The notes under the pieces were generated by a model. The model did no database searches, was not told where the DNA came from, and was given only the letters and a program-made list of their open reading frames with translations. A stretch of DNA of 64,000 bases from an uncultured Planctomycetales bacterium. Lineage in GTDB: Bacteria > Omnitrophota > Gorgyraeia > Zapsychrales > JANLHA01. Positions 9,751 through 62,232 of this stretch are shown here, piece by piece (within the stretch, counting starts at the first letter, position 1; each line of letters opens with the position of its first letter). Made by a program: the position numbers and the translations under genes. Location: the NCBI GenBank assembly GCA_964450385.1, contig CAYVEC010000002.1, positions 65,262 through 129,261 of the forward strand, given 5' to 3'.

Positions 9751-9834
9751 GTTCCGTATTTATTGTACTGATTTTTATAAAAGAATTTTATTAATTTTAC
9801 TCTTTTTTTATTGCGTCTAAACCCTTCCATCGCC

Positions 9835-14510: not shown

Positions 14511-14511
14511 G

Positions 14512-14943: not shown

Positions 14944-14960
14944 TCTCGCCTCCTACTCAA

Positions 14961-16175
14961 TTATTGGACCATCATGTTCATCCGAAAGACCGGCAAGACC
15001 AGGGCCAGGACAATGAATCCGACGGCGAGCCCCAACCCGAGGATCAAGGCCGGTTCGAGTAATGTGCTCACCAGACGGGTCACCGCATCGAGCTGCCGCT
15101 TATAAAAATCTGCGAGTTTTTCAAACCCCCTCGCCAATTCCCCTGACTCTTCCCCAAGTGTCACAAAATCAACCACAAGGTCAAAAAAGAACCGTCCTTT
15201 TTTCAGCGCCGCGCTCAACCGCTCTCCGTCTCGAACATCTTCGATCACCTGCTGCATATCGTCCTGGGCCGTCCGCCAGCCCGTCGATCCTGCGGTGGCC
15301 TGAAGGGCCGCGATCACATCAACCCCGCCTGACAACAGGGCCCCGAGCATCCGGCTCCAGCGCTCAAACACCGCGCTCTTCAACAGCCTGCCGATGACTG
15401 GCAAACCGAGGACCGCGCCCTCCCAATAGAGCCGATGACGGCCATGACGCCACACGGCGCGGCCATAAAAACCGGCCGCGATCACCAGAAGCGCCCCGAC
15501 CCACCACAACCGAGAACAGAGATCGCTCACTGACATCAAGATAACGGTCGGCCAGGGAAGCGATTGCCCGATATCATCGAAAAGACCAGCCATCCGAGGG
15601 ATCACCCAGACAAGAAGGACCGACATCGTCGCGATCCCGACAACGATGATAAAGGCCGGATACAACAGGCTCATCATCACCTGCTGCCGAAGCCGATGCC
15701 GCGCCTCGAGCACATCGGCGAGACGCGCCATCATAGCCCCAAGCTGACCGCTCATCTCACCGACCCGCGCCATCTGGACCATCTCTTCAGAAAAAACATC
15801 ACGGTGCTGTTCCATGGCGGCTGAGACCGACGCCCCATCACGAACAGCCGCGGCCATCTCGGTCAAAAGGGCCTCGACCCCAGGATGCCGCGTCTGGGTC
15901 TGAAGGGCGGCCAAGGCCGCAGCTACCGGAAGCCCATGGTCCAAAAGATCGCTCCAGTGACGGATCAACATGACGGTGTCCCCCTCTGAAACACGCGGAC
16001 CCCGCGCCCCACGACGCCTCTCCCTGCGCGCCGAAGGCTGAACGCCGACGACCTCTAAAGGGACCATCCCCTGACCGTTCAACTGCCGGATCGCGCCTGC
16101 GGCGCTCTCCGCACTGATCTCGCCTCGAACGATCTTGTGCGGCCCCTGTTTCGCTGTATAAGAAAAAGTAAGCAC
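14961..16175 (-). CDS. gspF: Type II secretion inner-membrane platform protein GspF
   Basis: 404 aa. The N-terminus is MLTFSYTAKQG... The protein has two repeated T2SSF domains with three TM segments. Confidence 0.85.
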   Translation of the reverse strand: MLTFSYTAKQGPHKIVRGEISAESAAGAIRQLNGQGMVPLEVVGVQPSARRERRRGARGPRVSEGDTVMLIRHWSDLLDHGLPVAAALAALQTQTRHPGVEALLTEMAAAVRDGASVSAAMEQHRDVFSEEMVQMARVGEMSGQLGAMMARLADVLEARHRLRQQVMMSLLYPAFIIVVGIATMSVLLVWVIPRMAGLFDDIGQSLPWPTVILMSVSDLCSRLWWVGALLVIAAGFYGRAVWRHGRHRLYWEGAVLGLPVIGRLLKSAVFERWSRMLGALLSGGVDVIAALQATAGSTGWRTAQDDMQQVIEDVRDGERLSAALKKGRFFFDLVVDFVTLGEESGELARGFEKLADFYKRQLDAVTRLVSTLLEPALILGLGLAVGFIVLALVLPVFRMNMMVQ

Positions 16176-16197
16176 CCCCCCTCCCGTCGATCACCGG

Positions 16198-17901
16198 CTA
16201 AGCCGTCTCCTCCCTCGTCACCCTCAGAACCTCATCGATCGTTGTGATGCCCCGCTGAACCTTGTCCCAGCCGTCCTCCGCCATCGTGGTCATCCCCTTA
16301 GCCGCGGCAAGGGAACGGATCTGCTCAACTGAGGCCTTCCGCACGATCATCTCCTTCATTTCCTCATTAAGGACAAGAAATTCATAGATCCCCTCCCGTC
16401 CATAAAACCCCGTCTCGCCACACGCGGCACAGCCCTGCCCCCGATACACGGTCACCGATCCCGGATCAATATCCAGACCCAACCCCGCGACAAGGGCCGG
16501 ATCAGCGGGGATCGCAGTCTTGCACCCGGGGCAGATCCGTCGGACAAGCCGCTGGGCGATAAAGCAGTGAACAGAGTTCGCGACCATATAGGGCTCCACC
16601 CCCATATCGATCAACCGGGCGATCCCGCTCACCGCGTCATTCGTATGCAGCGTCGAGAAGACCAGATGCCCGGTCATCGCGATCTGGATCGCGATCTCGG
16701 CGGTCTCATGGTCCCGGACCTCCCCGACCATCATCACATCGGGATCGTGGCGCAGCATGGACCTCAGCCCCGAGGCAAAGGTGAAATTCAAGATGGGATT
16801 GATCTGAAGCTGAACGACGCCGGGAAGCTGATATTCGATCGGGTCTTCGATGGTAATAATCTTGCGCTGGGCATGATTGATCCGGGCGAGGCATGAATAC
16901 AGCGTCGTGGTCTTGCCGCTCCCGGTCGGACCGGTCACAAAAATGATCCCGTAGGGACGACGGACAAGCCGATCGAGCACGGCGAGGTTCGTTGGAGAAA
17001 GCCCGAGCTCAGAAAAATCATAGAGTTTGTTCGAACTAAGGATGCGGATCACAACGCTCTCGCCATACGACGTCGGGAGAAACGAGACCCGAAGATCAAG
17101 ATCGACCTCACCGGCCTTGACCTGGAACCGGCCGTCCTGGGGCCGGCGCTTTTCAGCGATATTCAGATTGGACAGGATCTTGATGCGCGAATTGATCGCC
17201 TCGCGGAAGAACCAGATATTCGACGGCGTATGGACATCAACGAGAACTCCATCGATCCGGTAGCGGATCTTGAGCTGCTGCTCATAAGGTTCAATATGAA
17301 TATCGGTCGCGCGCTTCAGATGCGCCTCGCGCAAGAGCTGATTGATGAATTTGGCGATCGACGCCTCGGATTCGATCTCGGTCAAATTATCAACCTCGGG
17401 TCCAACGGCCGCCGGCTCGTCCCCGCGTTGCCCCATCATCGCATCGATCGTCTCAGCCCCAATCCCGTAATATTTTCCAATGGCCTTGGCCAAGTCCTTA
17501 GCCCCGGCGAGGACCATCTTGATGCGCCCGGGCCATGCCGTTTCAAGGACATCGATCATCTGAAGGTCGCCGGGATGATGGGCCGCAACCGTCAGGGTCT
17601 CGCCCTCGCAGGCAATAGGCAGAACATTCCATTGGGTTGCGTATTTCGCGGGGATCTTATTTAAGACTTCAGGATTCAGAACGAGGTCCGAGACATCAAC
17701 ATAATCATATCCGAGCTGACCGGCGAGGATAGGCAGAAAAAGCTGCTCCTCTTCAAGGAAGCCGAGCCGGAGTAAAACGACTCCGAGAAGTTCACCCGAG
17801 CGTTTCTGTTCATCAAGGGCTTGGACCAGCTGTTGTTCAGTAATCAGTCCATGATCGATCAACAGAGCGCCCAGAGGCATTGAATGTTCTAAATTCTCCA
17901 T
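16198..17901 (-). CDS. gspE: Type II secretion ATPase GspE
   Basis: Walker A GPTGSGKTT and a tetracysteine CPGC...CAAC zinc motif. The N1 domain reads LLIDHGLITEQQL. Confidence 0.9.
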   Translation of the reverse strand: MENLEHSMPLGALLIDHGLITEQQLVQALDEQKRSGELLGVVLLRLGFLEEEQLFLPILAGQLGYDYVDVSDLVLNPEVLNKIPAKYATQWNVLPIACEGETLTVAAHHPGDLQMIDVLETAWPGRIKMVLAGAKDLAKAIGKYYGIGAETIDAMMGQRGDEPAAVGPEVDNLTEIESEASIAKFINQLLREAHLKRATDIHIEPYEQQLKIRYRIDGVLVDVHTPSNIWFFREAINSRIKILSNLNIAEKRRPQDGRFQVKAGEVDLDLRVSFLPTSYGESVVIRILSSNKLYDFSELGLSPTNLAVLDRLVRRPYGIIFVTGPTGSGKTTTLYSCLARINHAQRKIITIEDPIEYQLPGVVQLQINPILNFTFASGLRSMLRHDPDVMMVGEVRDHETAEIAIQIAMTGHLVFSTLHTNDAVSGIARLIDMGVEPYMVANSVHCFIAQRLVRRICPGCKTAIPADPALVAGLGLDIDPGSVTVYRGQGCAACGETGFYGREGIYEFLVLNEEMKEMIVRKASVEQIRSLAAAKGMTTMAEDGWDKVQRGITTIDEVLRVTREETA

Positions 17902-17951
17902 GATCCATCATCCGCTCGGGCATCGACCGATGAAATCGCACCTGTCATGAA

Positions 17952-19466
17952 TTATGACGATGTGTCCAATTTCCAAAAAATCACATATTCCGTATTAACG
18001 ACCCGCAGCTTGTCCATGCGAAAGGCCCCGCCAAGGACCGGCAGGTCCCCCAGGACCGGCACCTTCAAGGTCCGGGCCACCGACTCGGTCTTTATGAGCC
18101 CGCCGAGGACCACATAGGATCCGGCCTCGAATTGGACCTGGAACTTCTTTCCAGGATCGATGATGCCGCCAAGGCCCTTATCCGATTCTCCCATCCAAAA
18201 AAGCCGTGGATACACCGCGAATTGGATCATCTCATCCGGTAAAAATGACGCAGCCATCTCCGCCTGTATTTTAAACCCATCGGGATCGAGCATGACATCC
18301 TTGTCTTTGACCAGAAGGGGCGAAAATGGGCTCGTCGTGTCAATCACCGCGACCCGCTGCTCTTCTGCGGTCAGCGGGATCGACCAGGTCGAGAGGTCCT
18401 CGACAAAGCCAACCGCGTCCAAGGCCTCAAGGAGTACCTTGAAGTCCTCTTCATTTAAGATCCCAATCTTGAAAATCAACCCCGGCGGTTCCGAAGCACA
18501 CTCGGCGCACTCGAACTGTTGATATTGACTGATGATCGCGGCCCAATCAACACCGTTCGCGTACTCTTCGTTAAGCCGGATCCGCACGACCCTCACCTTA
18601 ACGGTGAGCTCAACCTTACGATCAGCCTCACGGATCGCCGCAGCGATCTTTTCAAGGGCCGCGGCCGAGTCCGTGACCGAAATGGAATTCTTAGCTGAAT
18701 TGACCTCAAGACGACCGACATCCTTCGTCAAGAACTTAGCCGCCAGGGACTGGACCTTTTCCGCGCGGGCGAACTGAAGGACAAAATCCTGGGTCACAGC
18801 CTCAACATCGCGATCCGTGACCGCGCGCGCGATCGTTTCAACCGCCGCGGGGGTATCAACGATAATGACCTGCCGATTTTTATCATCCATAAAAATCAAG
18901 CCCCCCTCGTTCGACAACGGGCGGACCATCGGTTCGATCATCGACGGCGACTGGTATCGAAGGCTGATCACCCGGACGGCGCGCTCAGGCTTAAAGGCCT
19001 TGCCATAACGATCAGCATACGCCTGACGAGGCATAACAATCGCCATCCCGTCTTCGATTTCGTAGGCCAGATCATATCTGAGGGCCGCGATATCGAAAAG
19101 GTCTTCAACAGAGACGTCCTTTACGGCGAGGCCGATGGCCGGCTCAATCCGAGCCGTCTCAGCGACGATGATCGTCCATCCCGTCATCCGAGCCATCTCA
19201 TCAAACAGCCCGCCAACTGTTTTCGCCTGAAGATCAACCGCGGGGAAACGCTCGCCGAGTGCCCGAGGCTGAGCAACGGGGAAGGCCGCGGGCGCGTCAT
19301 TCGTTGAGACAGCGGGCCCGCCTTCATAGGCATTCAGCATCCGCTCGATATCAACGCGACGCTCATCCTGGGCCCGTGCCCCTGAAGCCGATAAAAACAC
19401 GGCCACAACCGTTGTCACAATATAAAAATGAATACGCAACCATGTTTCCTTTCGCTCATACATCAT
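17952..19466 (-). CDS. gspD: Type II secretion secretin GspD (start chosen at MMYERKET; the ORF extends to 19556)
   Basis: Signal peptide and a C-terminal secretin domain (VLGGLIKTESVARTLKVPVLGDLPVLGGAFR). Confidence 0.85.
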   Translation of the reverse strand: MMYERKETWLRIHFYIVTTVVAVFLSASGARAQDERRVDIERMLNAYEGGPAVSTNDAPAAFPVAQPRALGERFPAVDLQAKTVGGLFDEMARMTGWTIIVAETARIEPAIGLAVKDVSVEDLFDIAALRYDLAYEIEDGMAIVMPRQAYADRYGKAFKPERAVRVISLRYQSPSMIEPMVRPLSNEGGLIFMDDKNRQVIIVDTPAAVETIARAVTDRDVEAVTQDFVLQFARAEKVQSLAAKFLTKDVGRLEVNSAKNSISVTDSAAALEKIAAAIREADRKVELTVKVRVVRIRLNEEYANGVDWAAIISQYQQFECAECASEPPGLIFKIGILNEEDFKVLLEALDAVGFVEDLSTWSIPLTAEEQRVAVIDTTSPFSPLLVKDKDVMLDPDGFKIQAEMAASFLPDEMIQFAVYPRLFWMGESDKGLGGIIDPGKKFQVQFEAGSYVVLGGLIKTESVARTLKVPVLGDLPVLGGAFRMDKLRVVNTEYVIFWKLDTSS

Positions 19467-19519
19467 TATTGCTAATCTATTATAAACGAAATTTCTAATA
19501 GTTATAATACAAGTATTTT

Positions 19520-20857
19520 TTATTTTGGGAGACCTTCTGACTGCCCGTCCGCACAATCGCGCCCTGAATCAACGGGCACCTCTCTGCCCATGCTCTCGAA
19601 GATCGCATGCGCCTCAGCGATCCGCCCCAATCTCAACAAGGCCTCGGCCTGCGTCAAACGATACACCGACCGGCCAGGAACATAGACCAATGCCTGATTA
19701 ATCGCGTCAAGCCCCCGGTCAAAATCCCCCTCTTCGTCCATATAGTACCAGGCGAGTTCATAGAGCGCCTCGGGATTCTGCGGACGCTCTTCGAGGCTCT
19801 TCTCTAAAAGCCGCTTGGCCTCACAGGGGCCCAGGTCTTCCGCACGATAGAGATACTCCGCATACGAGGGATTAAACACCCCCAAGAGGATGACCGGGAC
19901 CACGACCATCGTGGCATTAAAAAAATAATGGGCGATCACGCTCGGCCATACCGATCCGCTCCAGGCGCGGAACAGCGTCAAGACCATCCCCAAGACCAGG
20001 ATGATAACGACGGCGAGCGGGTCTCCGGCATATTGATCAAGGTGCATCCCCGTAAAGATCAACGCGCTCATGAGCACCGCGATCCCCCGTCCCTTGATCT
20101 GATCAATCACGTAATAAAAATAGCCTCTAAAAAAGATCTCTTCCAAAAGCGGAGCGACTCCGACAGCAACAAATAAAAACATCATGGCCATGCCCGATGA
20201 GTCGGCCATGTCGAGGAACTCGCTGAATGGCGTCGCCGGCTGGACTTGACGAAAAAAGAGCAGTGTTGAAGCAACGAGGGCCAGTCCCGCGCCCGCGAAG
20301 GCAGCCGCAGACCACGTCATAAGGCGCTGATGCCGATGACACACGGTCAGCCCCAAGAGCTCTTTAAGGTCCAATCCTGGGAACCGGCGAGCGCCTATAA
20401 CGATGAGGCCCATCATCAACAGCCCGCCGAAAAACGAAAGGAGCAGGATCCAGAAGACCAGCGGCATCGCGTGCCCCCACCCGGACTTCGCGGCCCGAAG
20501 GATCACCGACACGGCAATCATACCTACAAACCACTGGAAAATAACACCGATAGCCTCAATCCCGAGGACAAAACGGTACGACGGGCTGGCCGGGGCATAA
20601 TGTCCCCGCTCCGCAAACACACACATCGCCTTCCTCCGACGGAGGACATGTGCGGCCGCGACCAGGGCGAGCGCCAGGACAGCCGCGCCGTCGAACCCGT
20701 CGATCTGGGCAGCAAGGACAACTGATATCACCGCGAGCGCCCCGGTCAAGAGAAAGTGGAATGAAAAGACCTCGCGAAAAACATCACGTCCGACCTTTTT
20801 GATCAACAAGAAATCACTAAACAAGAGAACGGGCAAGATAACAAATGCGGTATCCAT
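19520..20857 (-). CDS. CPBP-family intramembrane metalloprotease (CAAX protease/Abi) with C-terminal TPR-like region
   Basis: EEIFFRGY ... FTGMHL motifs of CPBP, in a multi-TM protein. Confidence 0.7.
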   Translation of the reverse strand: MDTAFVILPVLLFSDFLLIKKVGRDVFREVFSFHFLLTGALAVISVVLAAQIDGFDGAAVLALALVAAAHVLRRRKAMCVFAERGHYAPASPSYRFVLGIEAIGVIFQWFVGMIAVSVILRAAKSGWGHAMPLVFWILLLSFFGGLLMMGLIVIGARRFPGLDLKELLGLTVCHRHQRLMTWSAAAFAGAGLALVASTLLFFRQVQPATPFSEFLDMADSSGMAMMFLFVAVGVAPLLEEIFFRGYFYYVIDQIKGRGIAVLMSALIFTGMHLDQYAGDPLAVVIILVLGMVLTLFRAWSGSVWPSVIAHYFFNATMVVVPVILLGVFNPSYAEYLYRAEDLGPCEAKRLLEKSLEERPQNPEALYELAWYYMDEEGDFDRGLDAINQALVYVPGRSVYRLTQAEALLRLGRIAEAHAIFESMGREVPVDSGRDCADGQSEGLPK

Positions 20858-28186: not shown

Positions 28187-29152
28187 TCAGCCGACGAGCA
28201 GGGGCTGTAATATGTTCAACAGATAGCCCATTAAAATAATATAGAGTGTCACCAGCCCGAAAAAGATCCCGATCAACTTCAGCCTCATGGCCCGGCGTAA
28301 TAAAATCGCCTCAGGCAGACTGAGCGCCGACGTCGCCATCATAAAGGCCATCGCCGTCCCGAGAGGCACCCCTTTTTGGAAGAGGACCATGGCGACCGGG
28401 ACAATCGAGGCGCAGCCTCCGTACATCGGGACCCCGATGAGGACCGACAACGGCACGGCAAAAAATCCCGTGGACTCCACAATGGACTGAATCGTCTCCC
28501 GGGGAACATAATTATGAATAACGGCTCCAATGCCAACCCCGACCAGGACCCACTTCCAGATCTTGTGAAGAATAGCAAGCGACTCGCTCACCCCAAAACG
28601 CACCCGGTCAATAAACGAACGGAATTGCGGTCCGTCGTCGGCCGCGCCCGAGGCCACCATGTCCTCTTCGAGCATAGCCTCAAGCCTCATCTTTCCGATA
28701 AGATGTCCAACCACGGCGCCGACCAAAACACCAAAGACGACATAGACGATCGTAATCTTCCAGCCAAAGTACATCAGCATGAGCACGACCAAGTACTCAT
28801 TGATAATAGGCGATGTGGCCAAAAAGGAAAAGGTGACCCCAAGGGGAACCCCTCCTTTAATAAACCCCAAAAAGATCGGGATCGAGGAACACGAACAAAA
28901 CGGCGTCACCGCGCCAAACACGGCTGCTGCGAGATTGCCAACAAAGCCCCGGCCCGCAAGCCACTTTTTCACGGTCTCCTGAGGCAGAAACGACCGGATG
29001 AACCCGATGAAGGAGATCATCACAAAAAGCAGGATAACAATCTTCGCGGAATCATAAACGAAAAAATGCGCCATCCCCGACACATGGGTATCGTGGGGAA
29101 GACGCAAAACATCATAGATGATCCAATCGGCGATCTTTAACAGCATCCGCAA
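28187..29152 (-). CDS. ArsP/DUF318-family permease (COG0701)
   Basis: Signature TPFCSCSSIPIF and a second repeat half with a ~8-10 TM topology. Confidence 0.75.
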   Translation of the reverse strand: MRMLLKIADWIIYDVLRLPHDTHVSGMAHFFVYDSAKIVILLFVMISFIGFIRSFLPQETVKKWLAGRGFVGNLAAAVFGAVTPFCSCSSIPIFLGFIKGGVPLGVTFSFLATSPIINEYLVVLMLMYFGWKITIVYVVFGVLVGAVVGHLIGKMRLEAMLEEDMVASGAADDGPQFRSFIDRVRFGVSESLAILHKIWKWVLVGVGIGAVIHNYVPRETIQSIVESTGFFAVPLSVLIGVPMYGGCASIVPVAMVLFQKGVPLGTAMAFMMATSALSLPEAILLRRAMRLKLIGIFFGLVTLYIILMGYLLNILQPLLVG

Positions 29153-44978: not shown

Positions 44979-45170
44979 TCACATCTCAACCGCGACCTTC
45001 AGCTTCACCTGAAATTCCTTAACAAGCCCCTCCCTCACCGCGCCGCGCTGCTCGACCACCTCAAAAAAATGCACCCGCCGGCCATCTGCCACGAGTTTCT
45101 CGATCGCGGACTGGACCGCCTTTGAAAACCCCACAGATGAGATCCCCACAACCTCAAGCATCTGCAACAT
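44979..45170 (-). CDS. Dodecin-family flavin-binding protein
   Basis: 63 aa. VVGISSVGFSKAVQSAIEK...HFFEVVEQRGAV...FQVKLKVAV matches the dodecin beta-alpha-beta-beta pattern. Confidence 0.65.
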   Translation of the reverse strand: MLQMLEVVGISSVGFSKAVQSAIEKLVADGRRVHFFEVVEQRGAVREGLVKEFQVKLKVAVEM

Positions 45171-46656
45171 CCCCTAGCTCCTTTCTCTCCTGTCCTTGCC
45201 CGGCCATCCCTGACCGAAGATATTTCAAAAATTCATCAACAACGCGGGGATGAAACTGCTGCCCCCGATTCCGCCGGATCTCCTCGATCGCAGTCTCCCG
45301 CGACAGGGCCGCCCGATACGCCCGATCAGTCGTCATCGCGTCATACGCATCGGCCACGGCCAGGATCTGGGCGTACAGATTGATCCCCTCTCCGGCGAGC
45401 TGATCCGGGTATCCCGTGCCATCATAATGTTCATGGTGCCCTCGGACAATCGCAAGGAGCTCTTTGTCGAAGACCGCGGATCGAAGAATGTCCTCACCGA
45501 TGGCCGGATGCTGATGAATGAGGTCCCACTCCTCAGGGGTCAGCGTCTCTTTTTTATTCAAGACCGAATCCTGAATCGCGAGTTTCCCGATATCATGGAG
45601 CTGAGCCGCTTCCCAGATAAGTTCCACCGCGTGTTCGTCAAGCCCCATTGTCTTTGCGATCCCGGCGGCATACCCCGCGACCCGGTCCGAATGCCCACGT
45701 GTATAAATATCCTTGGCCTCTAGGATCCGGATCATGGACTGCATCGCGCGGTAAAAATAATGATGGGTCTTTTTCCGTGAGAGCCACAAGGCCCGCGCCA
45801 TCCGGTTAAAATCGCTGGCAAGGCCAGCAACCTCGTCATGCCCGGAATCGTCAACGCGGAACGTGAACTCGCCCTTACTGATCCGCCGCGTCCCCTCGGC
45901 AAGATCCTCGATCCTTCGGGTGATCCACCCCGAAAGGGCGATCCCAAGGCCAACAGCGATCGCAATCCCCGCGCCCAGGACGGCAATCCCGCGCCGATGG
46001 ACAAGGCGTCTCACCGCGTAGACATCATCCGCAGTCACATCAACTCCAAGGACCGCCACCGGTTCCCCGTGTTGATTTCGAATCGGGGCATACCCTGAAA
46101 GAAGGCTCCCCCACTCATCTGAGCCGAGACGGGTATCCGCAGTCGGACCATCAAAGGCCTTCATCATCTCAGGGAACCGCGAGGCATCATACCGGGCCCC
46201 GGGATAACATTCCTGACCCCGACGAACGTCCTGCCCGCCGCCCTCCGCGTCAGGGTCAACTACGAACTGCCAGATCCCCTGTTCCTCGGTCCGGGTCATG
46301 ATATACACAAACCGCACCGGCGGATTGGCGTCGAGGATCCGCTTGAGCTTCTGTAAGGTCGCCTGATAGGCCGGAGACTCAACCCCCTCCCGCGTCAACG
46401 GGATTTCCTCAAGCCGATCCCCATCAATGAATAAGGCCGCGGTCTGGGCGACGACCTTCAATTTATCGCGGAGCTGGTCAAACTGGGCATCAAGGGCATA
46501 AGAATAAATAAAGGCATTACTCAAGGCCACGACCGTGACCGTACTCGCGATCAAGGCCGCCGTGACCTTCCAACGGAAACTTCCGCGGGCGAGGATCCGT
46601 GCCCCAGGTCCCACCTGCCGTCGACGTCTCACGCCCTTGCTTCCCGTACCGATCAT
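45154..46656 (-). CDS. HD-GYP domain c-di-GMP phosphodiesterase with periplasmic sensor domain and HAMP
   Basis: HDIGK...HHEHYDGTGYP. Two TM segments flank a ~200-aa periplasmic domain, with HAMP before HD-GYP. Confidence 0.8.
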   Translation of the reverse strand: MIGTGSKGVRRRRQVGPGARILARGSFRWKVTAALIASTVTVVALSNAFIYSYALDAQFDQLRDKLKVVAQTAALFIDGDRLEEIPLTREGVESPAYQATLQKLKRILDANPPVRFVYIMTRTEEQGIWQFVVDPDAEGGGQDVRRGQECYPGARYDASRFPEMMKAFDGPTADTRLGSDEWGSLLSGYAPIRNQHGEPVAVLGVDVTADDVYAVRRLVHRRGIAVLGAGIAIAVGLGIALSGWITRRIEDLAEGTRRISKGEFTFRVDDSGHDEVAGLASDFNRMARALWLSRKKTHHYFYRAMQSMIRILEAKDIYTRGHSDRVAGYAAGIAKTMGLDEHAVELIWEAAQLHDIGKLAIQDSVLNKKETLTPEEWDLIHQHPAIGEDILRSAVFDKELLAIVRGHHEHYDGTGYPDQLAGEGINLYAQILAVADAYDAMTTDRAYRAALSRETAIEEIRRNRGQQFHPRVVDEFLKYLRSGMAGQGQERKELGDVADA

Positions 46657-46684
46657 CTAGCCGCCCCCGATTCTCTCCGATGAG

Positions 46685-47602
46685 CTACCGTCCCCAGAGT
46701 CCGCCGTCTTTTTTGATCAATCTCAACAAAAATTGAACAACTGTCTCATCAAACTGCGTCCCAGCCCCGCGGGTCAACTCATCCAGGATCGTCTCCTTGG
46801 AAAGGGCCGCCCGATAAAATGTGGTCGTATTCATCTCGTCAAAGGCCTCGCAGACCGCGATGATCCGTGACTCAAGCGGGATGTCCGCCCCACGCTTCCC
46901 ATCGGGATATCCTGTCCCGTCCCAACGCTCATGATGGTGGCGGATCGCCGCGCGCTCAAGATGAAGAAATTTTAACGGCCGGAGGATCTCGTCACCGAGG
47001 ATCGTATGCCGATTGATCTTCTCACGCTCCTCCGGAGAGAGGGCCCCGGACTTTTTAAGGATCTCATCATCGATAACGAGTTTCCCAAGATCGTGCAACA
47101 GGGCGGCCCGACGGATCGATTCAACAGTGTCCGCCGAGAGCCCCATCTCGTTTCCAATCAAAACAGCGAGGCGCGCGACCCGGGCCGAGTGCCCGTGAAG
47201 ATACAGCGCGCGGCGTTCAACAAGATTAATTAACGAAGCAATCGTTTCCACCTCGGCATTCTCAAGCCGCACATAGGCGCTCAATAACTCATCATTCATG
47301 GCCTGAACGCGTTCGCGCTCGCCGACCTCGCGCATCCAGAGATGGCCAATGAGGGCCAAGACGATCATCAGGATAATCTTCTCCGAGATCTCGCTCATCT
47401 CGGGCGCGGTGAAGACGATCGCGAGCTGAACGCAAACGAGAAAAAAAATTCCGCCCATCAACCACATCTTGAGGCGATTATTATATGAGACCGCTGCCTC
47501 AAGCAGTCGGCTGTGCTGATACACCCCAGGTTCCTGATCAACGTTCATGTTCTGCCCCCTCACGCAGGATGAATGAGCTTCTTCAAAAACTGTACCGCGC
47601 AC
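46685..47602 (-). CDS. HD-GYP domain protein (membrane-anchored)
   Basis: HDLGKL...HHERWDGTGYP and two N-terminal TM helices. Confidence 0.8.
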   Translation of the reverse strand: MRGTVFEEAHSSCVRGQNMNVDQEPGVYQHSRLLEAAVSYNNRLKMWLMGGIFFLVCVQLAIVFTAPEMSEISEKIILMIVLALIGHLWMREVGERERVQAMNDELLSAYVRLENAEVETIASLINLVERRALYLHGHSARVARLAVLIGNEMGLSADTVESIRRAALLHDLGKLVIDDEILKKSGALSPEEREKINRHTILGDEILRPLKFLHLERAAIRHHHERWDGTGYPDGKRGADIPLESRIIAVCEAFDEMNTTTFYRAALSKETILDELTRGAGTQFDETVVQFLLRLIKKDGGLWGR

Positions 47603-52363: not shown

Positions 52364-53209
52364 TTACAAACTCCGTCTCCGCCGAGCGAACGCGCCAAGC
52401 GCCCCAGCCCCAAGGAGCACGAGGCTCATGGGTTCCGGCACTGCCTGCGGGGCCTCGGGATTCTCATCGCGGTCGATAAACCCGCCGCCGACATCCCAGC
52501 GGGCAAGCCACCCGCCAAAGGCCTCACCGTCAGGAACACTCGCGATAACCGCATCAAAACTCACCGTCCCGTCCTCCCGGATCTCGCCTTCACCGTTCAA
52601 GGTGTATTGAAGCATCTTTTCCCTGCATCCCGGATCAACGCAATAATCCGAATATACCGTATAATACCGGGTATTTAAGATACCGGTGGTCGGATTCTCA
52701 TAAAAAGTGTAATACTTTAATTCAAACTGAAGGACAAACTGCAGATGATCATTTGCGGAATCCGTTGTCCCTGCGAAATCATAATCATATGAAAAAGCGG
52801 GAAAGATCATACTGCTCGGAAAATTAAAGAACTGGGCCCGGCCATAAAAATCCACATTACCAAGAGCAGAGGTTGTAGCCCCGTCCGGCGTCTGATAAAC
52901 CGCCTCAAAGGCCGATCCGCCATTACTCAACGCCGTCCCAGTCAGCGAACTATACCCATCCGTCCTGGGCAAGGCATTATTCAGATAGACCGTGCCCTGC
53001 GGCGCCCAAGGGAACGACTCACTATGAGTACTATAATTATAGTAAGAAAGATAGCCAAACCGCCCATCCGTGTACGTCGACTGGCTGGTGCCCGGGGTTA
53101 CGCCCCATGAAAAATTAACAACACCATTCCCCGTCACCATGGCATGCGCGGGCTGAATACCGAGGACTAAAGAAACAATTAAGAAGAGAACCGCTCGTTT
53201 ATTCATCAT
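52364..53209 (-). CDS. PEP-CTERM-anchored secreted protein (exosortase substrate); start chosen at MMNKRAV
   Basis: Signal peptide. C-terminal VPEPMSLVLLGAGALGAFARRRRSL is the PEP motif plus TM plus Arg-rich tail. Confidence 0.8.
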   Translation of the reverse strand: MMNKRAVLFLIVSLVLGIQPAHAMVTGNGVVNFSWGVTPGTSQSTYTDGRFGYLSYYNYSTHSESFPWAPQGTVYLNNALPRTDGYSSLTGTALSNGGSAFEAVYQTPDGATTSALGNVDFYGRAQFFNFPSSMIFPAFSYDYDFAGTTDSANDHLQFVLQFELKYYTFYENPTTGILNTRYYTVYSDYCVDPGCREKMLQYTLNGEGEIREDGTVSFDAVIASVPDGEAFGGWLARWDVGGGFIDRDENPEAPQAVPEPMSLVLLGAGALGAFARRRRSL

Positions 53210-53263
53210 GAAGCCCTCAAGAGCATTTTTGATTTTTATATATAATATATACTTGAGGGCTAA

Positions 53264-53323
53264 AATATAGCATATGGCAGGAACGAATGTCAATGGGACA
53301 ACCCCTCCCCAACCCAGACAGAA
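53264..53323 (-). promoter_or_regulatory. Sigma70-like promoter (TTGACA-18-TATATT on minus strand) overlapped by a conserved 36-nt dyad motif shared with the other PEP-CTERM gene
   Basis: Motif tgtcaatgggacaacccctccccaacccagacagaa (plus strand 53288..53323). It is 30/36 identical to 62065..62100. Confidence 0.45.
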
Positions 53324-53407: not shown

Positions 53408-54751
53408 CTAGGCAGCCCGGCTTAAAGGGTCCGGGCCGCTTTCCCCTAATATGGCAGAACCAGGAATGCCCTTAATGAACTCCTGCCTCAGGCTATAGGT
53501 GTAGGCGCCCTGGACCGGGACAAGGAGAATGTCTCCTTCCCGGATGCCTGTACCAAAATAGGAATATCCCCAAAGGTCATGAGGCGTACAGAGCGACCCA
53601 AAGACCGTGCATTCCCGCTCATCAAGCCCGGGCTGGCTCAGATTGATCACAGGAAAATAATCCGCCTCATAGCGTTCCCAGCCGACCATATTGATCCCGC
53701 CGTCCACGATCACGACATCATCCGCTTTTTTATCCATGACCTTGAGCAGAATATGCATGGCCTCATGGCTGATCCAGCGGCCCGGTTCGAGATGGACCGC
53801 GCAGTCGACATAGGGAAAAACATATCGGCGAAGCGCCGTGTCCAACTCCTTCACAAAATCCGTGATCGGCGCTGCGCGATGCCATCGATGATCCAGGCCT
53901 TCCGTAAGCCGCGGGTCCGCGATCTTTTTCACCTGCCCCTCGGGCGTGGCCGAGGGCTGGATCCACTCGCCATCCGGAGGCCAATAGCCGCCGCCGATAT
54001 CCAAGAACGTGATCCTCGATCGCAGGGGCGCAGCGAGGTCCGCCAGAAGCCCGCCGAGGCGTTCCAAAAAGGCCGTCTGTTTCCTTGCGTCGAGATTCCA
54101 GCTCGCGTGGAATTGAAACCCGCAGAGATCCAATGCATCACACGCTGCGGCCGCTTCAACAAATCGCGGCACCTCGCGTAACGGAATCCCAAATTTGCGC
54201 CAGAGACCCTCTTCTTCGATCATCAGACGGACCCCGGCACGGATCCTTCGCCCCTTCGACCCGCCGAAGACCTGCGGCGCGACGCGCTCGAGCCGCGCGA
54301 GCTCACCAAAACTATCAAGCAACAGGATCACGCGATCGGCATGACGGCAGGCAAGGAGGAGTTCCTCATCGGTCTTGCCCGGCCCGCTAAAAATGATCTC
54401 CCGCGCCTCAGATCCGAGGGCCAGACCAAGCTCACGGCCGCTCGACACATCAAGGCCATACCCCTGACGGACCACGCTCGTAATCACCGCCGGGTGATCA
54501 TTACTTTTCATCGCATAAAAACAGGTCACCTGCGGCAGGACGGCCAAAAAGGCATCGCGGAATTCAATCGCCCTCCGCGTCAGCGCCGGCACATCAACCA
54601 GATAGACCGGGGTGCAGTCAGCGGCCTCGATATAGCGTTCCTTCGCTTCAATAAAACGCCGCACAAAGGCCCGCAAGACCGCCTCGTCCAGAAGCGGGGT
54701 CTCGGCACGTAAGATCCCCTCGATATTATTGAAGTAATTTTGCGGGTTCAT
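53408..54751 (-). CDS. PLP-dependent decarboxylase, Orn/DAP/Arg decarboxylase family 2 (exosortase-system-associated type); start chosen at MNPQNY
   Basis: FYAMKSN (PLP-Lys) ... barrel and C-terminal beta domain motifs. Sits in a PEP-CTERM locus. Confidence 0.7.
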   Translation of the reverse strand: MNPQNYFNNIEGILRAETPLLDEAVLRAFVRRFIEAKERYIEAADCTPVYLVDVPALTRRAIEFRDAFLAVLPQVTCFYAMKSNDHPAVITSVVRQGYGLDVSSGRELGLALGSEAREIIFSGPGKTDEELLLACRHADRVILLLDSFGELARLERVAPQVFGGSKGRRIRAGVRLMIEEEGLWRKFGIPLREVPRFVEAAAACDALDLCGFQFHASWNLDARKQTAFLERLGGLLADLAAPLRSRITFLDIGGGYWPPDGEWIQPSATPEGQVKKIADPRLTEGLDHRWHRAAPITDFVKELDTALRRYVFPYVDCAVHLEPGRWISHEAMHILLKVMDKKADDVVIVDGGINMVGWERYEADYFPVINLSQPGLDERECTVFGSLCTPHDLWGYSYFGTGIREGDILLVPVQGAYTYSLRQEFIKGIPGSAILGESGPDPLSRAA

Positions 54752-56039
54752 TCTTGAACTCAATGGCCACCTGCACCTTCTGCATGATCTCACAACACTG
54801 GCCTTCAAGGACCCGATCGGACAATGGAGAAAAGATGACATACCCCAAGACGCGCGAATCATAATCCTTAGGCGGCAGCTGGATTCTCTCACCCGGCAGG
54901 CGGTACGGCTGCCACGATCGAACCCGGTCATCGGCCAAGGCCTCGGACGCATCGATCGACCTTAAGATCCCCTCCTGCTGGGCAAAGATCCGCATGCCGA
55001 CAAGCCGCTGCCACCGCCGAGGATCGACGGGGACAACCGTCCGGCCTTCCGCGAAGTCAAAGCTCGCGGCAAAGACATCAAACCCGGAACTGGCTTGAAT
55101 CAACGGAGGCAGGCAATCGCCTCCAAGGCGGGGCGTCATCTCAAAAAATACGATTCCTTCTCCGACAAACTTAAAATCCGCCATCATGATGCACCGGGTC
55201 AATCCAAGGCTGAGCGCCGCCTGACAGACATGACCTTCAATCCGCTCCAGAGTCCACCCCTCGGGCAGGACCGCCGGTACCTCATACGCCATGATCGTAC
55301 CAAAGACCTCGCCGCGCTTCGCGATCTTTTTCGATACCCTGAGCGCCCGGACCCGTCCGCCCTCAAGCATAAAATCACCGCTGTACTCATCGCCCACGAT
55401 ATATTCCTCAAGGACCACGGCCTGACGGGGATCCTCATCATCAGCCATATCGATCCCGCCGTACATCCTCTCGTTGGGGTGCGCGGCGAGGGTCTTGCGG
55501 ATGAGCTGGAACGAGCGCCGGCAGTCATCGGCGCTCGCGCACAAAAAGACAAGTTCTCCGCCGCTGCCGCTTAGCGGCTTCATCACGGCGAGCCCGCCCG
55601 CAAGGTCCTCAAAAAAACCCACCGCCTCAGCCTCGGTCGCGGCAAGAGCCGCCCGAGGGCACCCGACACCGGCAGCCATCCAGACTCGTTTTGAAAGATG
55701 TTTCGACCGGCAGCGGACCACGGCCTCGTGTGATGAAAAATCCAGACCAAAGGCCTCGGCCACGGCCGCGCCGAGCCAGAGGGATTCGCAGTCATAACAG
55801 ACAACGCCCGACAGGGTCCATCCGTAACGGCCGAGATGCGCCCGAACGGCCTCGACGACCGGCCCCGCCTCAAGCAGGCCCACGAGCACCTCAGCGTCCG
55901 GCGGCGGCACGAGCTGCGGCCAACGGCCGCGTTCTCCGGGATCCGTCACAAAAAGGGCGCGGCCAGGGAACCGCCGCGCCAGCATGTCGATGTAGTCCGC
56001 CGTTGTCCCAACCACCAGAACTCGCGCATTGGCAGTCAT
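54726..56039 (-). CDS. ATP-grasp domain enzyme (carboxylate-amine ligase-like)
   Basis: ATP-grasp fold pattern (VMKPLSGSGG..., ...EEYIVGDEYS..). Confidence 0.55.
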   Translation of the reverse strand: MTANARVLVVGTTADYIDMLARRFPGRALFVTDPGERGRWPQLVPPPDAEVLVGLLEAGPVVEAVRAHLGRYGWTLSGVVCYDCESLWLGAAVAEAFGLDFSSHEAVVRCRSKHLSKRVWMAAGVGCPRAALAATEAEAVGFFEDLAGGLAVMKPLSGSGGELVFLCASADDCRRSFQLIRKTLAAHPNERMYGGIDMADDEDPRQAVVLEEYIVGDEYSGDFMLEGGRVRALRVSKKIAKRGEVFGTIMAYEVPAVLPEGWTLERIEGHVCQAALSLGLTRCIMMADFKFVGEGIVFFEMTPRLGGDCLPPLIQASSGFDVFAASFDFAEGRTVVPVDPRRWQRLVGMRIFAQQEGILRSIDASEALADDRVRSWQPYRLPGERIQLPPKDYDSRVLGYVIFSPLSDRVLEGQCCEIMQKVQVAIEFKNEPAKLLQ

Positions 56040-56046
56040 GGGAGCC

Positions 56047-56967
56047 TCAACTGATATTGCTTAACAGGTCCAGGGGACGAGGAGAGAGATGGAAGATCTT
56101 TTTCCAGGAAAAATCCCCGCTCAAGAAGTCTGCCTCTTTGTATTTCTCTTCGCAGGCCTTCTTGATATGATGCAGATTGATCACCTTGGCCACGCCAGGA
56201 TAATTCGCGTCGGTCCCGCCGGCCAACAGGGTATAGACGCCTTTATAAAGACAGCCGACATCCACGGCCGCAGGCTTTCCATCAATAATGACGGTCGTGA
56301 TCCTCAGCCACCGTTTCTTCCGAAGGAACTCGGCAAGCTGGCGGAAACTGGCGCTGAACCGTTCATCCTTAAAATACGAATCCTCCCCAAAACGCTCGAT
56401 GCTCATGCGCACCATGACATCAAAGTCTGAGAACTCGTCAAGACGAATCGTAAGATCGCGCAGATAATACTTATCGACCTCGCGGCTGATCGCCTTGCGG
56501 GACTTCCGGGAAAAAAGGGCATAATAATTATCGATATTATAGCTCATCAGTTCCGAATAAAAGATATACCCGATCTCATCGGTCGTCGAGAGCTTCGCCG
56601 GAAGGTGCGAATTCGGAAGGAGATACCGCAGATGAAATGGGATTTTTTTGCGCTTCAACCAGTTGAGCATCTGATTAAAGACCGCCTGGTCGCGGGCCAC
56701 GACCCGGTTCTGCTCCAGCCAGGTCTTCCCCTGCCAGACTTCGCCGGGAAAATATCCGTAACAGTTACTCTCAGGGATCCAGCTGAGCGGAATCAGGCCG
56801 AGCGGCTGACCATCCTCCTGGGCAAAGATAAACAGCGGGGTGCGTTGAAAATGATCATGAAAACATTCGCGGACTTCCCAGAGATCCATGAGACGATCCT
56901 CGGGGATCATCCGCTTCCACAATTGTCGACAGGTGTCAAGGTCAGAAGTGCTGTAAACTTTTATCAT
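56047..56967 (-). CDS. FemAB-like/GNAT-fold acyltransferase (PEP-CTERM-system-associated FemAB-related family)
   Basis: ~300 aa BioF2/FemAB-like acetyltransferase pattern. Neighbours are PEP-CTERM genes. Confidence 0.5.
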   Translation of the reverse strand: MIKVYSTSDLDTCRQLWKRMIPEDRLMDLWEVRECFHDHFQRTPLFIFAQEDGQPLGLIPLSWIPESNCYGYFPGEVWQGKTWLEQNRVVARDQAVFNQMLNWLKRKKIPFHLRYLLPNSHLPAKLSTTDEIGYIFYSELMSYNIDNYYALFSRKSRKAISREVDKYYLRDLTIRLDEFSDFDVMVRMSIERFGEDSYFKDERFSASFRQLAEFLRKKRWLRITTVIIDGKPAAVDVGCLYKGVYTLLAGGTDANYPGVAKVINLHHIKKACEEKYKEADFLSGDFSWKKIFHLSPRPLDLLSNIS

Positions 56968-61091: not shown

Positions 61092-61934
61092 TTAACCCCG
61101 GCGTCTACGCCAGATCAGGCTGCCCGCCATGCTCGTTCCTAAAAGGACCATCGTAGCCGGTTCCGGTACTGGATTGGCCCCAGGCACGTCATCTATTTTC
61201 CCATCAATCCAGATATAATCGGAAATACACTCATATTTCGCCAAGAATAACCGCATCGAATCCCCTTCATTAAGATCCCCGAAATACCACCGTGGGATCC
61301 GGCTCTCTAAAACATACGTCCGGCCGGTCCAACCCCAGCTATTACCAGAATCACGCGGCTCTCGCCCGATTCCAGTCCAGGGTTCGACGCTCCCGAGAGA
61401 GCGATTAAAGATCTCATAATCGCCAATATCCGTTCCCTGAAGAATTTGATACGGAGCCCCGCTTGACGTCCGCCACCGGGTCACCTGATAAATATCTTGC
61501 TGGATCGCTGCCCCGTCATCCGTTCGTGCGCCAAGGAGCCCAATCTTGAGACCAAGCTCATAAATGCCGTCACCATCGGCATCAATCGCCATATCCTCAG
61601 GGTACGGGCTTGTTCGCGAGTAGGCCGGATCAAAGGGGATCGAACTCACGACCGCCCAATAAAGATAGTCCGCGTCATTGTCAAAATAAATCGCCTCAAG
61701 ATCGCGCGATTCTGCAAATATTGAGGTGCGGATCCCTAACCCTTCATTGGTCGAATATTTATTCACATCATCCGCCTCACGCCATTCAACACGGGCGCTA
61801 TCCGGCTGCCAATCCGTAAATGCCGTCACCCCCCAGTCGTCCAGGCGTCCATCGATCACATAACCGAAGGCGGCCGGGACAAGAGTCACGCAACAGACCG
61901 CGACGCCCAGAATAGATAAAATTTGTTTTTTCAT
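61092..61934 (-). CDS. PEP-CTERM-anchored secreted protein (exosortase substrate)
   Basis: Signal peptide. C-terminal VPEPATMVLLGTSMAGSLIWRRRRG. Confidence 0.8.
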   Translation of the reverse strand: MKKQILSILGVAVCCVTLVPAAFGYVIDGRLDDWGVTAFTDWQPDSARVEWREADDVNKYSTNEGLGIRTSIFAESRDLEAIYFDNDADYLYWAVVSSIPFDPAYSRTSPYPEDMAIDADGDGIYELGLKIGLLGARTDDGAAIQQDIYQVTRWRTSSGAPYQILQGTDIGDYEIFNRSLGSVEPWTGIGREPRDSGNSWGWTGRTYVLESRIPRWYFGDLNEGDSMRLFLAKYECISDYIWIDGKIDDVPGANPVPEPATMVLLGTSMAGSLIWRRRRG

Positions 61935-62041
61935 TATGCGCTCCTCATCATGTTAATAAAAATAAATCTCCCCCTACTGAGGGTTGGAAAGCATTTGTGT
62001 TTAAATATAGTTAATAACATTAATAATCGGAATCGTAAATA

Positions 62042-62100
62042 AAGATACATGAAGAGTCGGGTTCTGTCAACGGGACACTCCCCCCCAAACCCGGACAGAA
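62042..62100 (-). promoter_or_regulatory. Sigma70-like promoter (TTGACA-17-TATCTT on minus strand) overlapped by the conserved 36-nt dyad motif shared with 53288..53323
   Basis: tgtcaacgggacactcccccccaaacccggacagaa (plus strand 62065..62100). Confidence 0.45.
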
Positions 62101-62232
62101 CCAAAAGCCCTCCCAGAACCAAAAATACACCGATACCATGGATCACGAGACCCGAGGCGCCACGCCAAGCCTAACCTGTTGGGAATCAACGTGTTGAAAT
62201 CCTAGGCCGTCCGATCTGATCAGCCCCCGACT

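What the first reader, a model, noticed from the sequence alone, without database searches (positions are those of the whole stretch)
53264..53323. Conserved 36-nt dyad motif upstream of both PEP-CTERM genes (first copy)
tgtcaatgggacaacccctccccaacccagacagaa at 53288..53323 is 30/36 identical to 62065..62100. Both copies lie just upstream of a PEP-CTERM protein gene on the same strand. Each has the form TGTC ... GGGACA ... GACAGAA with a G/C-rich core, and the TTGACA (minus strand) doubles as the -35 of a sigma70-like promoter (18- and 17-nt spacers to TATATT / TATCTT). This looks like a dedicated transcription-factor operator controlling exosortase substrates. PEP-CTERM genes are usually co-regulated with exopolysaccharide loci by a dedicated two-component system (PrsK/PrsR) acting at sigma54 promoters. 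Here the architecture instead looks sigma70-like with an overlapping dyad site.
Basis: seen in the sequence. Interest (0 to 1): 0.6.

Follow-up and report, generated by a model that had tools for sequence, protein, structure and literature searches.

The report
Repeat-bearing sigma70 promoter for PEP-CTERM genes
Both exosortase-substrate (PEP-CTERM) genes in this window, and PEP-CTERM genes in at least three other uncultured bacteria, sit behind the same ordinary-type promoter with phased TGTCC repeats just upstream, which looks like an undescribed control site different from the known sigma-54/PrsR switch.

Summary
53288..53323 and 62065..62100 match at 30/36 without gaps, are the only two copies in 64 kb, and each lies upstream of a minus-strand PEP-CTERM gene (PF07589). 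The two genes are otherwise unrelated. On the gene strand the block reads TTCTGTCY-(G-rich)-TGTCCCRTTGACA, then 18 or 17 nt, then TATATT or TATCTT. Public scans found five more sites with the same layout, two of them in a Ca. Omnitrophota MAG. Four of the five precede PEP-CTERM genes and one precedes a small HTH_17 gene. These relatives show three direct YTGTCC repeats at a 10-nt period, the last abutting a TTGACA -35, followed 17-18 nt later by a -10. In the window copies a G-run replaces the middle repeat. The -10 was never part of any search pattern, yet it is present in 6/6 PEP-linked sites against 2/15 other pattern hits. None of the six has a sigma-54 -24/-12 element or the 17-nt PrsR box. 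All five PEP2 homologues examined elsewhere have a sigma-54 promoter. My best reading is a sigma70 promoter with a tandem-repeat site for an unidentified dedicated regulator, probably an activator. I rate it a new variant of a known kind, of moderate interest.

The parts
53317..53323 (-). Copy 1, distal repeat word TTCTGTC (block positions 1-7), centred about -64 from the inferred transcription start
   Evidence: Sequence. CTGTC is invariant in all 7 family members.
53301..53316 (-). Copy 1, G-rich spacer (TGGGTTGGGGAGGGGT). It occupies the place of the middle TGTCC repeat seen in relatives.
   Evidence: The stretch is similar between the two window copies but is not conserved in L034, L024, L016 or L025.
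53294..53300 (-). Copy 1, proximal repeat TGTCCCA, immediately upstream of the -35. Together with the -35 it forms TGTC-N5-GACA.
53288..53293 (-). Copy 1, -35 hexamer TTGACA
   Evidence: 11/12 match. Invariant in the family, including the unforced copy L034b.
53264..53269 (-). Copy 1, -10 hexamer TATATT, 18-nt spacer, preceded by TG (extended -10)
53212..53261 (-). PEP1 5' leader hairpin. AGCCCUCAAG pairs with CUUGAGGGCU, which contains the Shine-Dalgarno GAGGG.
   Evidence: -16 kcal/mol, z = -3.2. Seen in copy 1 only.
52364..53209 (-). PEP1, a PEP-CTERM protein gene (281 aa, signal peptide). It has no homologue in the 5.8-billion-protein set.
62094..62100 (-). Copy 2, distal repeat word TTCTGTC
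62078..62093 (-). Copy 2, G-rich spacer (CGGGTTTGGGGGGGAG), including a run of seven G
62071..62077 (-). Copy 2, proximal repeat TGTCCCG
62065..62070 (-). Copy 2, -35 hexamer TTGACA
   Evidence: 10/12 match.
62042..62047 (-). Copy 2, -10 hexamer TATCTT, 17-nt spacer
   Evidence: L034a has the same hexamer at the same spacing.
61092..61934 (-). PEP2, a PEP-CTERM protein gene (280 aa)

Best explanation
Each copy is the upstream part of a sigma70-type promoter that drives a monocistronic PEP-CTERM gene. TTGACA is the -35, and a TAnnnT -10 follows 17-18 nt later. Immediately upstream lie TGTC(C) words on one face of the helix, at about -44 and -64 in the window and additionally at about -54 in relatives. 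I propose they form the binding array of a dedicated transcription factor that binds head-to-tail. The likeliest candidate is an activator of the winged-helix kind (OmpR/PhoB-like response regulator, or an Xis/HTH_17-like protein) that contacts RNA polymerase from beside the -35. This factor would co-regulate exosortase substrates in lineages or loci that do not use the PrsR/sigma-54 box. Shown here: the sequence conservation, the association with PEP-CTERM genes, the promoter geometry and the absence of sigma-54 elements. Inferred: that a protein binds the site, what kind of protein it is, and whether it activates or represses.
For: The two window copies match at 30/36, are unique in the window and have sharp edges, in front of two non-homologous PEP-CTERM genes. 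Independent sites with the same layout were found elsewhere. L001/L034a lies in a Ca. Omnitrophota MAG. L034b lies in the same gene cluster and was found with a loose TGTCY-N5-TGTCY search rather than the forced pattern. L024 and L016 came from the metagenome scan. All of their downstream genes pass PF07589. Alignment A2 shows invariant CTGTC, TGTC and TTGACA, and a middle TGTCC/TGTCT/TGCCC in 5 of 7 sites. The spacers and flanks are not conserved, and the host DNA ranges from 38% to 56% GC. The -10 was never part of a search pattern. It is present at 17-18 nt in 6/6 PEP-linked sites against 2/15 other pattern hits, Fisher p = 5e-4. Every PEP-CTERM transcription unit in the sampled DNA has the motif: window 2/2, L034 2/2, L024 1/1, L016 1/1. 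Relaxed and PWM scans found no further copies. None of the six regions has GG-N10-GC or a PrsR box. All five PEP2-homologue promoters elsewhere have sigma-54 promoters, and two of them have canonical TGTCA-N7-TTACA boxes with an NtrC-type regulator gene nearby (a PrsK-like kinase gene as well in L033). The distance from the -35 to the start codon is 61-131 nt in the PEP-linked sites, which suits a promoter.
Against: No candidate regulator gene was found in the window, and none is shared between the motif-bearing contigs. The -35 is a perfect consensus and the -10 is good. That is unusual for an activator-dependent promoter and fits a constitutive promoter or a repressor site equally well. Conservation of the proximal TGTCCCRTTGACA in most relatives was forced by the search pattern; only L034b tests it freely, and there it reads TGTCATATTGACA. 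The family is small (7 sites) and the strict pattern is rare in 185,579 species genomes. One member, L025, drives an HTH_17 gene rather than a PEP-CTERM gene. The window copies lack the middle repeat. Only 64 kb of the genome could be examined.
Confidence: 0.6

Rival explanations
1. The site is a repressor operator. A dimeric repressor binds the TGTC-N5-GACA palindrome that overlaps the -35, helped by the distal TGTC word (in copy 2 the larger dyad GGTTCTGTCCGGG / CCCGTTGACAGAACC), and shuts off an otherwise strong promoter.
For: The -35 is perfect and the -10 is good, so the promoter should fire unaided. TGTC-N5-GACA overlaps the -35 and is over-represented in the window. Copy 2 has a long dyad (+ strand z = -3.3).
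Against: The extended dyad is absent from copy 1 (z = 0) and from L034, L024 and L016. What is conserved across organisms is three same-orientation repeats upstream of the -35, a layout typical of activators. Nothing covers the -10 or the transcription start.
Confidence: 0.2
2. No dedicated factor is involved. The block is simply a strong housekeeping-type promoter whose upstream part is shared through common ancestry or copying of a promoter cassette.
For: The -35 and -10 are near consensus. The two L034 copies precede paralogous genes and could have been duplicated together with them.
Against: PEP1 and PEP2 are not paralogues and their flanks are unrelated. Between organisms only the TGTC(C) words and the promoter hexamers are kept, while spacers and GC content change. 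No other promoter in 64 kb carries the words. The link to PEP-CTERM genes recurs in four separate sources.
Confidence: 0.12
3. The block is a divergent PrsR-type enhancer (the PEP-CTERM box of Haft 2006) serving a sigma-54 promoter.
For: It begins with TGTC and ends with TTGACA, as the 17-nt motif 1 begins with TGTCA and ends with TTTACA. Sigma-54-type PEP2 orthologue promoters also carry TGTCA words at 10-nt spacing (L012, L008).
Against: No sigma-54 -24/-12 match with 2 or fewer mismatches lies upstream of either gene. None of the six family regions has GG-N10-GC downstream of the block, whereas all five controls do. Copy 1 has only 78 nt between the block and the ATG, against a known mean of about 63 nt spacer + 17 nt motif + 71 nt. 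The half-site spacing is 4 bp shorter than in TGTCA-N7-TTACA.
Confidence: 0.04
4. The block is a structured RNA, a terminator of the upstream gene, or a generic interspersed repeat.
For: Copy 2 can fold into a hairpin. Both blocks lie downstream of another minus-strand gene.
Against: Rfam gives no hit at gathering or E-value thresholds. Copy 1 has no significant fold, and the pairing is not conserved in relatives. There is no U-tract. Only two copies exist in 64 kb. The two copies would be read in different frames, so the block is not coding.
Confidence: 0.03

Closest known systems
PEP-CTERM box of Proteobacteria (Haft et al. 2006, PMC1569441): 17-nt motif 1 (PrsR enhancer site ending in TTTACA) + about 63 nt + sigma-54 -24/-12 motif 2
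   Same: Both are conserved DNA elements in the long non-coding region in front of mostly single-gene PEP-CTERM operons. Both have repeated units and share word content (TGTC... / ...TT(T/G)ACA). Both presumably co-regulate exosortase substrates.
   Different: This block has no sigma-54 promoter and instead a sigma70 -35/-10. The repeats abut the -35 rather than sitting 32-92 nt upstream of the promoter. The units are direct repeats of 10 nt rather than a 17-nt TGTCA-N7-TTACA unit. PrsK/PrsR/PrsT were not seen, although only 64 kb is available. Haft et al. explicitly noted that other motifs remained to be found for PEP-CTERM genes lacking their box.
OmpR/PhoB-family response-regulator sites (e.g. 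the E. coli Pho box CTGTCAT-N4-CTGTCAT; OmpR F/C boxes; cyanobacterial RpaB HLR1). From general knowledge, not tested here.
   Same: Both have tandem direct repeats at a period of about one helical turn, located directly upstream of or abutting the -35 of a sigma70 promoter. The CTGTC core word resembles the Pho box half-site.
   Different: The period is 10 rather than 11 nt. A perfect -35 is retained, whereas Pho boxes replace it. The target genes are PEP-CTERM genes, not phosphate genes. No cognate regulator has been identified.
Xis/HTH_17-type winged-helix proteins that bind three head-to-tail sites (lambda Xis X1, X1.5, X2). From general knowledge; a lead only.
   Same: Both have two strong direct repeats about 20 bp apart with a weaker or degenerate middle site, as in the window copies. 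One family member (L025) sits directly upstream of an HTH_17 gene.
   Different: No HTH_17 homologue was detected in the window. Xis proteins act in recombination, not as promoter activators.

Membership tests
PEP-CTERM box (PrsR / sigma-54; Haft 2006) | Located in the non-coding region upstream of PEP-CTERM genes | tested here: met
PEP-CTERM box (PrsR / sigma-54; Haft 2006) | 17-nt motif 1 ending in TTTACA (seen as TGTCA-N7-TTACA in L033 and L009) | tested here: not met
   no TGTMA-N7-TKACA in any of the six family regions. It is present 3 times in L033 and once in L009.
PEP-CTERM box (PrsR / sigma-54; Haft 2006) | Sigma-54 -24(GG)/-12(GC) motif 2 about 63 nt downstream of motif 1 | tested here: not met
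   none downstream of either window block or in L034a/b, L024 or L016. It is present in all five control promoters.
PEP-CTERM box (PrsR / sigma-54; Haft 2006) | PrsK, PrsR and PrsT encoded in the same genome | not testable with these tools
   Only 64 kb of a 131.9-kb contig is available. No such genes were found among the ORFs scanned against Pfam.
Sigma70-type promoter | -35 TTGACA-like and -10 TATAAT-like hexamers 17 +/- 1 nt apart | tested here: met
   (11/12 and 10/12 matches). (6/6 PEP-linked sites against 2/15 other pattern hits).
Sigma70-type promoter | Transcription starts about 7 nt downstream of the -10 | not testable with these tools
   No transcript data are available.
Tandem direct-repeat activator site (OmpR/PhoB-like) | Two or more same-orientation half-sites at a period of 10-11 bp | tested here: met
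   TGTC at block positions 4, 14 and 24 in L034a/b, L024 and L016. The window copies keep positions 4 and 24 (20 nt apart), and the middle unit is degenerate.
Tandem direct-repeat activator site (OmpR/PhoB-like) | A cognate winged-helix regulator that binds the repeats | not testable with these tools
   No candidate was found in the window or shared between contigs. Binding needs an experiment.
Generic interspersed repeat (REP/MITE-like) | Many copies at unrelated positions | tested here: not met
   two copies in 64 kb, both at PEP-CTERM genes. Caveat: the rest of the genome was not seen.
Structured non-coding RNA | Match to a known family, or a conserved fold | tested here: not met
   (no Rfam match). 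(copy 1 z = 0 to +1). The pairing is not conserved in alignment A2.

The most novel reading that the evidence does not exclude
An unrecognised regulator binds phased TGTCC repeats beside a sigma70 -35. It defines a second PEP-CTERM regulon that spans phyla (Ca. Omnitrophota and the unidentified lineages of the window, L024 and L016) and has replaced PrsR/sigma-54 control. PEP2's own homologues elsewhere, down to 29% identity, still use sigma-54, so this would be a case of promoter rewiring of an exosortase substrate.
Probability: 0.45. Interest if true: 0.6.

Novelty: new variant of a known kind. Interest (0 to 1): 0.5.

Why it matters
PEP-CTERM/exosortase systems are widespread in environmental and biofilm bacteria. 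The only described control logic for them is the proteobacterial PrsK/PrsR sigma-54 box, and Haft et al. (2006) left regulation outside that class open. A compact, recognisable sigma70-type box gives three things. It is a marker for finding exosortase substrates and their co-regulated genes in uncultured lineages such as Omnitrophota. It is a handle for identifying the regulator by phylogenetic profiling or DNA-affinity methods. It is also an example of the same gene family (PEP2 and its homologues) being driven by two different promoter classes.

Tried and rejected
Source genome. The look-up of encoding contigs could not retrieve it. The listing of cluster members gave no name or accession. 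The taxon of the window stays unknown.

Genome scan. The strict pattern gave 7 hits, of which only L001 is a real relative. L002-L007 are coding or unrelated intergenic chance hits.

Metagenome scan. It gave 19 hits, of which 3 are family members (L016, L024, L025). The rest lack a -10, a middle repeat and a PEP-CTERM gene.

Viral scan. It returned only two copies of one chance coding hit.

PEP1 homologues. There are none, so no orthologous promoter could be compared.

PEP2 homologues. L008, L009/L010, L012, L032 and L033 turned out to have sigma-54 promoters, not the motif. L011 shows neither clearly.

Two further contigs with L001-type genes could not be read because the sample file was too large.

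The sigma-54, RNA-structure, coding and generic-repeat readings were rejected, as set out under the rival explanations.

A search for a regulator shared between motif-bearing contigs found nothing. tblastn of the L025 HTH_17 protein against the window found nothing.

Literature searches for the sequence, or for a non-sigma-54 PEP-CTERM regulator, found nothing relevant.

Full report
OBSERVATION. The sequence is as described. On the + strand, tgtcaatgggacaacccctccccaacccagacagaa (53288..53323) and tgtcaacgggacactcccccccaaacccggacagaa (62065..62100) match at 30 of 36 positions with no gap. A degenerate consensus allowing three mismatches finds only these two sites in the 64-kb window, and none in 100 dinucleotide-preserving shuffles. 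When the two upstream regions are aligned, similarity is confined to the block and the flanks are unrelated.

Both relevant genes are on the minus strand. PEP1 is 52364..53209; its likely start is the ATG at 53209, and the TTG at 53293 listed by the ORF finder is the TTG of the -35 hexamer. PEP2 is 61092..61934. Both pass Pfam PF07589 and TIGR02595. Outside the C-terminal sorting signal the two proteins are not homologous. PEP1 has no homologue at all in a 5.8-billion-protein set.

ANATOMY ON THE GENE STRAND. Copy 1 reads TTCTGTCTGGGTTGGGGAGGGGTTGTCCCATTGACA, then 18 nt, then TATATT (with an upstream TG). Copy 2 reads TTCTGTCCGGGTTTGGGGGGGAGTGTCCCGTTGACA, then 17 nt, then TATCTT. These are the two best sigma70-like matches in 52-63 kb, scoring 11/12 and 10/12. 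The start codons lie 78 and 131 nt downstream of the -35. No sigma-54 consensus with two or fewer mismatches lies upstream of either gene. The two blocks would be read in different frames by the ORFs that overlap them, so the block is not coding.

RELATED SITES ELSEWHERE. The source genome is not among the species-representative genomes, since neither window copy was returned by the scan. Its contig (131,902 nt, NCBI) could not be fetched.

A strict pattern scan of 185,579 species genomes gave seven hits, and six look like chance. The seventh, L001, is in a Ca. Omnitrophota MAG (JAHFGL010000004.1). It reads TTCTGTCCttagTTGTCCtaccTTGTCCCATTGACA, then 17 nt, then TATCTT, and lies 61 nt before a PEP-CTERM gene.

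A longer stretch of the same contig (L034) shows four PEP-CTERM genes in two pairs. The second pair is preceded, just after a terminator-like hairpin, by TTGTGTCCaacaGTGTCCtaccTTGTCATATTGACA, then 17 nt, then TATCCT. This copy was found with a loose TGTCY-N5-TGTCY search, not with the forced pattern.

A metagenome scan (CTGTC-N16-TGTCCCRTTGACA) gave 19 hits. Three have the full layout:
- L024 reads TTCTGTCCccggTTGTCCgggtTTGTCCCATTGACA-18-TATACT and lies 67 nt before a 277-aa PEP-CTERM gene.
- L016 reads ggCTGTCCacatGTGTCTacgtCTGTCCCGTTGACA-17-TAGTAT and lies before a small PEP-CTERM ORF.
- L025 reads atCTGTCCtattGTGCCCaataTTGTCCCATTGACA-17-TATACT and lies before a 64-aa HTH_17 gene beside a Fic gene. 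Further TGTCC words lie upstream of it.

All the PEP-CTERM assignments pass PF07589. The other 16 hits lack a -10, a middle repeat and a PEP-CTERM gene.

WHAT IS CONSERVED. Alignment A2 of the seven sites shows invariant CTGTC at block positions 3-7, TGTC at 24-27 and TTGACA at 31-36. A middle TGTCC/TGTCT/TGCCC sits at positions 14-18 in the five non-window sites. The spacers, the flanks and the host GC content (38-56%) are not conserved.

The element is therefore best described as three direct YTGTCC repeats at a 10-nt period, the last abutting the -35. In the window copies the middle unit is replaced by a G-run that the two copies share.

TGTC-N5-GACA occurs 4 times against 0.57 expected, and copy 2 has the long dyad GGTTCTGTCCGGG/CCCGTTGACAGAACC. 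Its GGG/CCC arms are not conserved in the relatives.

Most proximal words in the relatives were fixed by the search pattern, so only L034b tests them freely.

TESTS OF THE PROMOTER READING. The -10 was never part of any search pattern. I classed sites by whether a PEP-CTERM gene follows. A TAnnnT hexamer with at least 4/6 matches at 16-18 nt is present in 6/6 PEP-linked sites and in 2/15 other pattern hits, one of which is L025 (Fisher p = 5e-4).

None of the six PEP-linked regions has GG-N10-GC downstream of the block or a TGTMA-N7-TKACA unit.

All five promoters of PEP2 homologues from other sources have clear sigma-54 promoters. These are L008 at 61% identity, L009/L010 at 60%, L012 at 51%, L032 at 29% and L033 at 30%. 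Examples are TGGCATgttttTTGCT, AGGCACatttaTTGCT and TGGCACagataTTGAA. L033 and L009 also carry the canonical 17-nt TGTCAnnnnnnnTTTACA boxes and an adjacent NtrC-type regulator gene; L033 also has a PrsK-like kinase gene. This is the architecture described by Haft et al. 2006 (PMC1569441). It is supported experimentally for DVUA0057 in Desulfovibrio vulgaris (PMC3333781).

SPECIFICITY. Every PEP-CTERM transcription unit in the DNA I could read from motif-bearing organisms carries the element: window 2/2, L034 2/2, L024 1/1, L016 1/1. Relaxed-regex and PWM scans find no other copy in these sequences. One family member, L025, drives an HTH_17 gene instead.

ALTERNATIVES EXCLUDED. Rfam finds nothing at gathering or E-value thresholds. 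The block of copy 1 does not fold better than shuffles, and the pairing seen in copy 2 is not conserved. With two copies in 64 kb it is not a generic repeat. A viral-contig scan gave only a chance coding hit.

MECHANISM. Shown: a sigma70-type promoter geometry, and same-orientation TGTC(C) words at about -44, (-54) and -64, conserved across unrelated PEP-CTERM genes and distant genomes.

Inferred: the words are the binding array of a dedicated regulator. Phased head-to-tail repeats directly upstream of a -35 are, from general knowledge, typical of OmpR/PhoB-type activators; the Pho-box half-site CTGTCAT is similar. Xis/HTH_17-type proteins also bind two strong sites about 20 bp apart with a weak middle site, which matches the window copies, and L025 places the element directly in front of an HTH_17 gene.

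Against an activator, the -35 is perfect, so a repressor acting at the TGTC-N5-GACA palindrome or a constitutive promoter cannot be excluded. No regulator gene was found in the window or shared among the contigs.

COMPARISON AND NOVELTY. The element works like a PEP-CTERM box, that is, a cis site tied to exosortase substrates, but it fails two defining features of the known box: motif 1 and the sigma-54 motif 2. I therefore do not file it as a member. Haft et al. stated that further motifs remained to be found for PEP-CTERM genes lacking their box. I found no paper describing this one. I rate it a new variant of a known kind, of moderate interest. The evidence rests on seven sites and on no experiment.

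Noticed in passing
window 53212..53261 (-): The PEP1 5' leader forms a 10-bp hairpin: AGCCCUCAAG pairs with CUUGAGGGCU, with an AT-rich 30-nt loop. The 3' arm contains the Shine-Dalgarno GAGGG just before the ATG. The fold is -16 kcal/mol, z = -3.2. It may be translational control or an mRNA-stabilising 5' hairpin. No equivalent is present in copy 2.
   Followed up: partly
window 61970..61983 (-): The PEP2 leader holds a short terminator-like hairpin (CCCTCAGTAGGGGG followed by AGATTTATTTTTATT) between the promoter and the ribosome-binding site. The stem is weak (5 bp) and this could be chance.
   Followed up: no
window 62057..62107: Copy 2 has an extended inverted repeat, GGTTCTGTCCGGG ... 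CCCGTTGACAGAACC (+ strand fold -19.4 kcal/mol, z = -3.3), and a run of seven G between the TGTC words. Neither feature is present in copy 1. A change in the length of the G-run would alter the phasing of the two repeats.
   Followed up: partly
L008 1188-1260; L009 3650-3795; L012 110-190; L032 9950-9970; L033 9797-9975: Homologues of PEP2 (29-61% identity) in other organisms are driven by sigma-54 promoters with upstream TGTCA-word repeats. L033 and L009 have canonical PrsR boxes and an NtrC-type regulator gene (L033 also a PrsK-like kinase gene). The same gene family is therefore wired to two different promoter classes.
   Followed up: yes
L025 (reverse strand), about 60-110 nt upstream of the block, and 146..337: Extra TGTCC words (tttTGTCCtagTGTCCtaag...attGTCCatc) lie upstream of the three-repeat block. 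The downstream gene is a 64-aa HTH_17 protein next to a Fic-domain gene. This may be an autoregulated DNA-binding protein or a mobile-element context.
   Followed up: partly
window 53408..56967 (-): Directly upstream of PEP1 is a three-gene set: a PLP-dependent decarboxylase, an ATP-grasp enzyme and a FemAB-like GNAT. The decarboxylase and GNAT have weak, sub-threshold similarity to exosortase-A-associated families (TIGR03099, TIGR03019). No exosortase gene is present in the window.
   Followed up: partly
window 52364..53209 (-): PEP1 has no detectable homologue other than itself among 5.8 billion proteins, so it is an orphan PEP-CTERM protein.
   Followed up: yes
L016 4620..4875: The small PEP-CTERM gene downstream of the motif looks interrupted. 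ATGAAGAAATTAATGCCCTGA encodes MKKLMP followed by a stop, and the PEP-CTERM ORF continues in another frame. This could be a frameshift, an assembly error or a very short pre-protein.
   Followed up: no
window 45154..47602 (-) and 7272..19556 (-): The window holds two adjacent HD-GYP (c-di-GMP phosphodiesterase-type) proteins, one with a HAMP domain. It also holds a cluster with secretin-family proteins (Pfam) and ORFs that look by eye like pseudopilins and type II secretion/type IV pilus components (not scanned). This is possible biofilm-related context for the PEP-CTERM genes.
   Followed up: no
window 28187..29152 (-) vs L016 6268..7224 (-): The ArsP-type permease of the window is 60% identical over 316 aa to one on the motif-bearing contig L016. 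This hints that the two organisms may be related.
   Followed up: no
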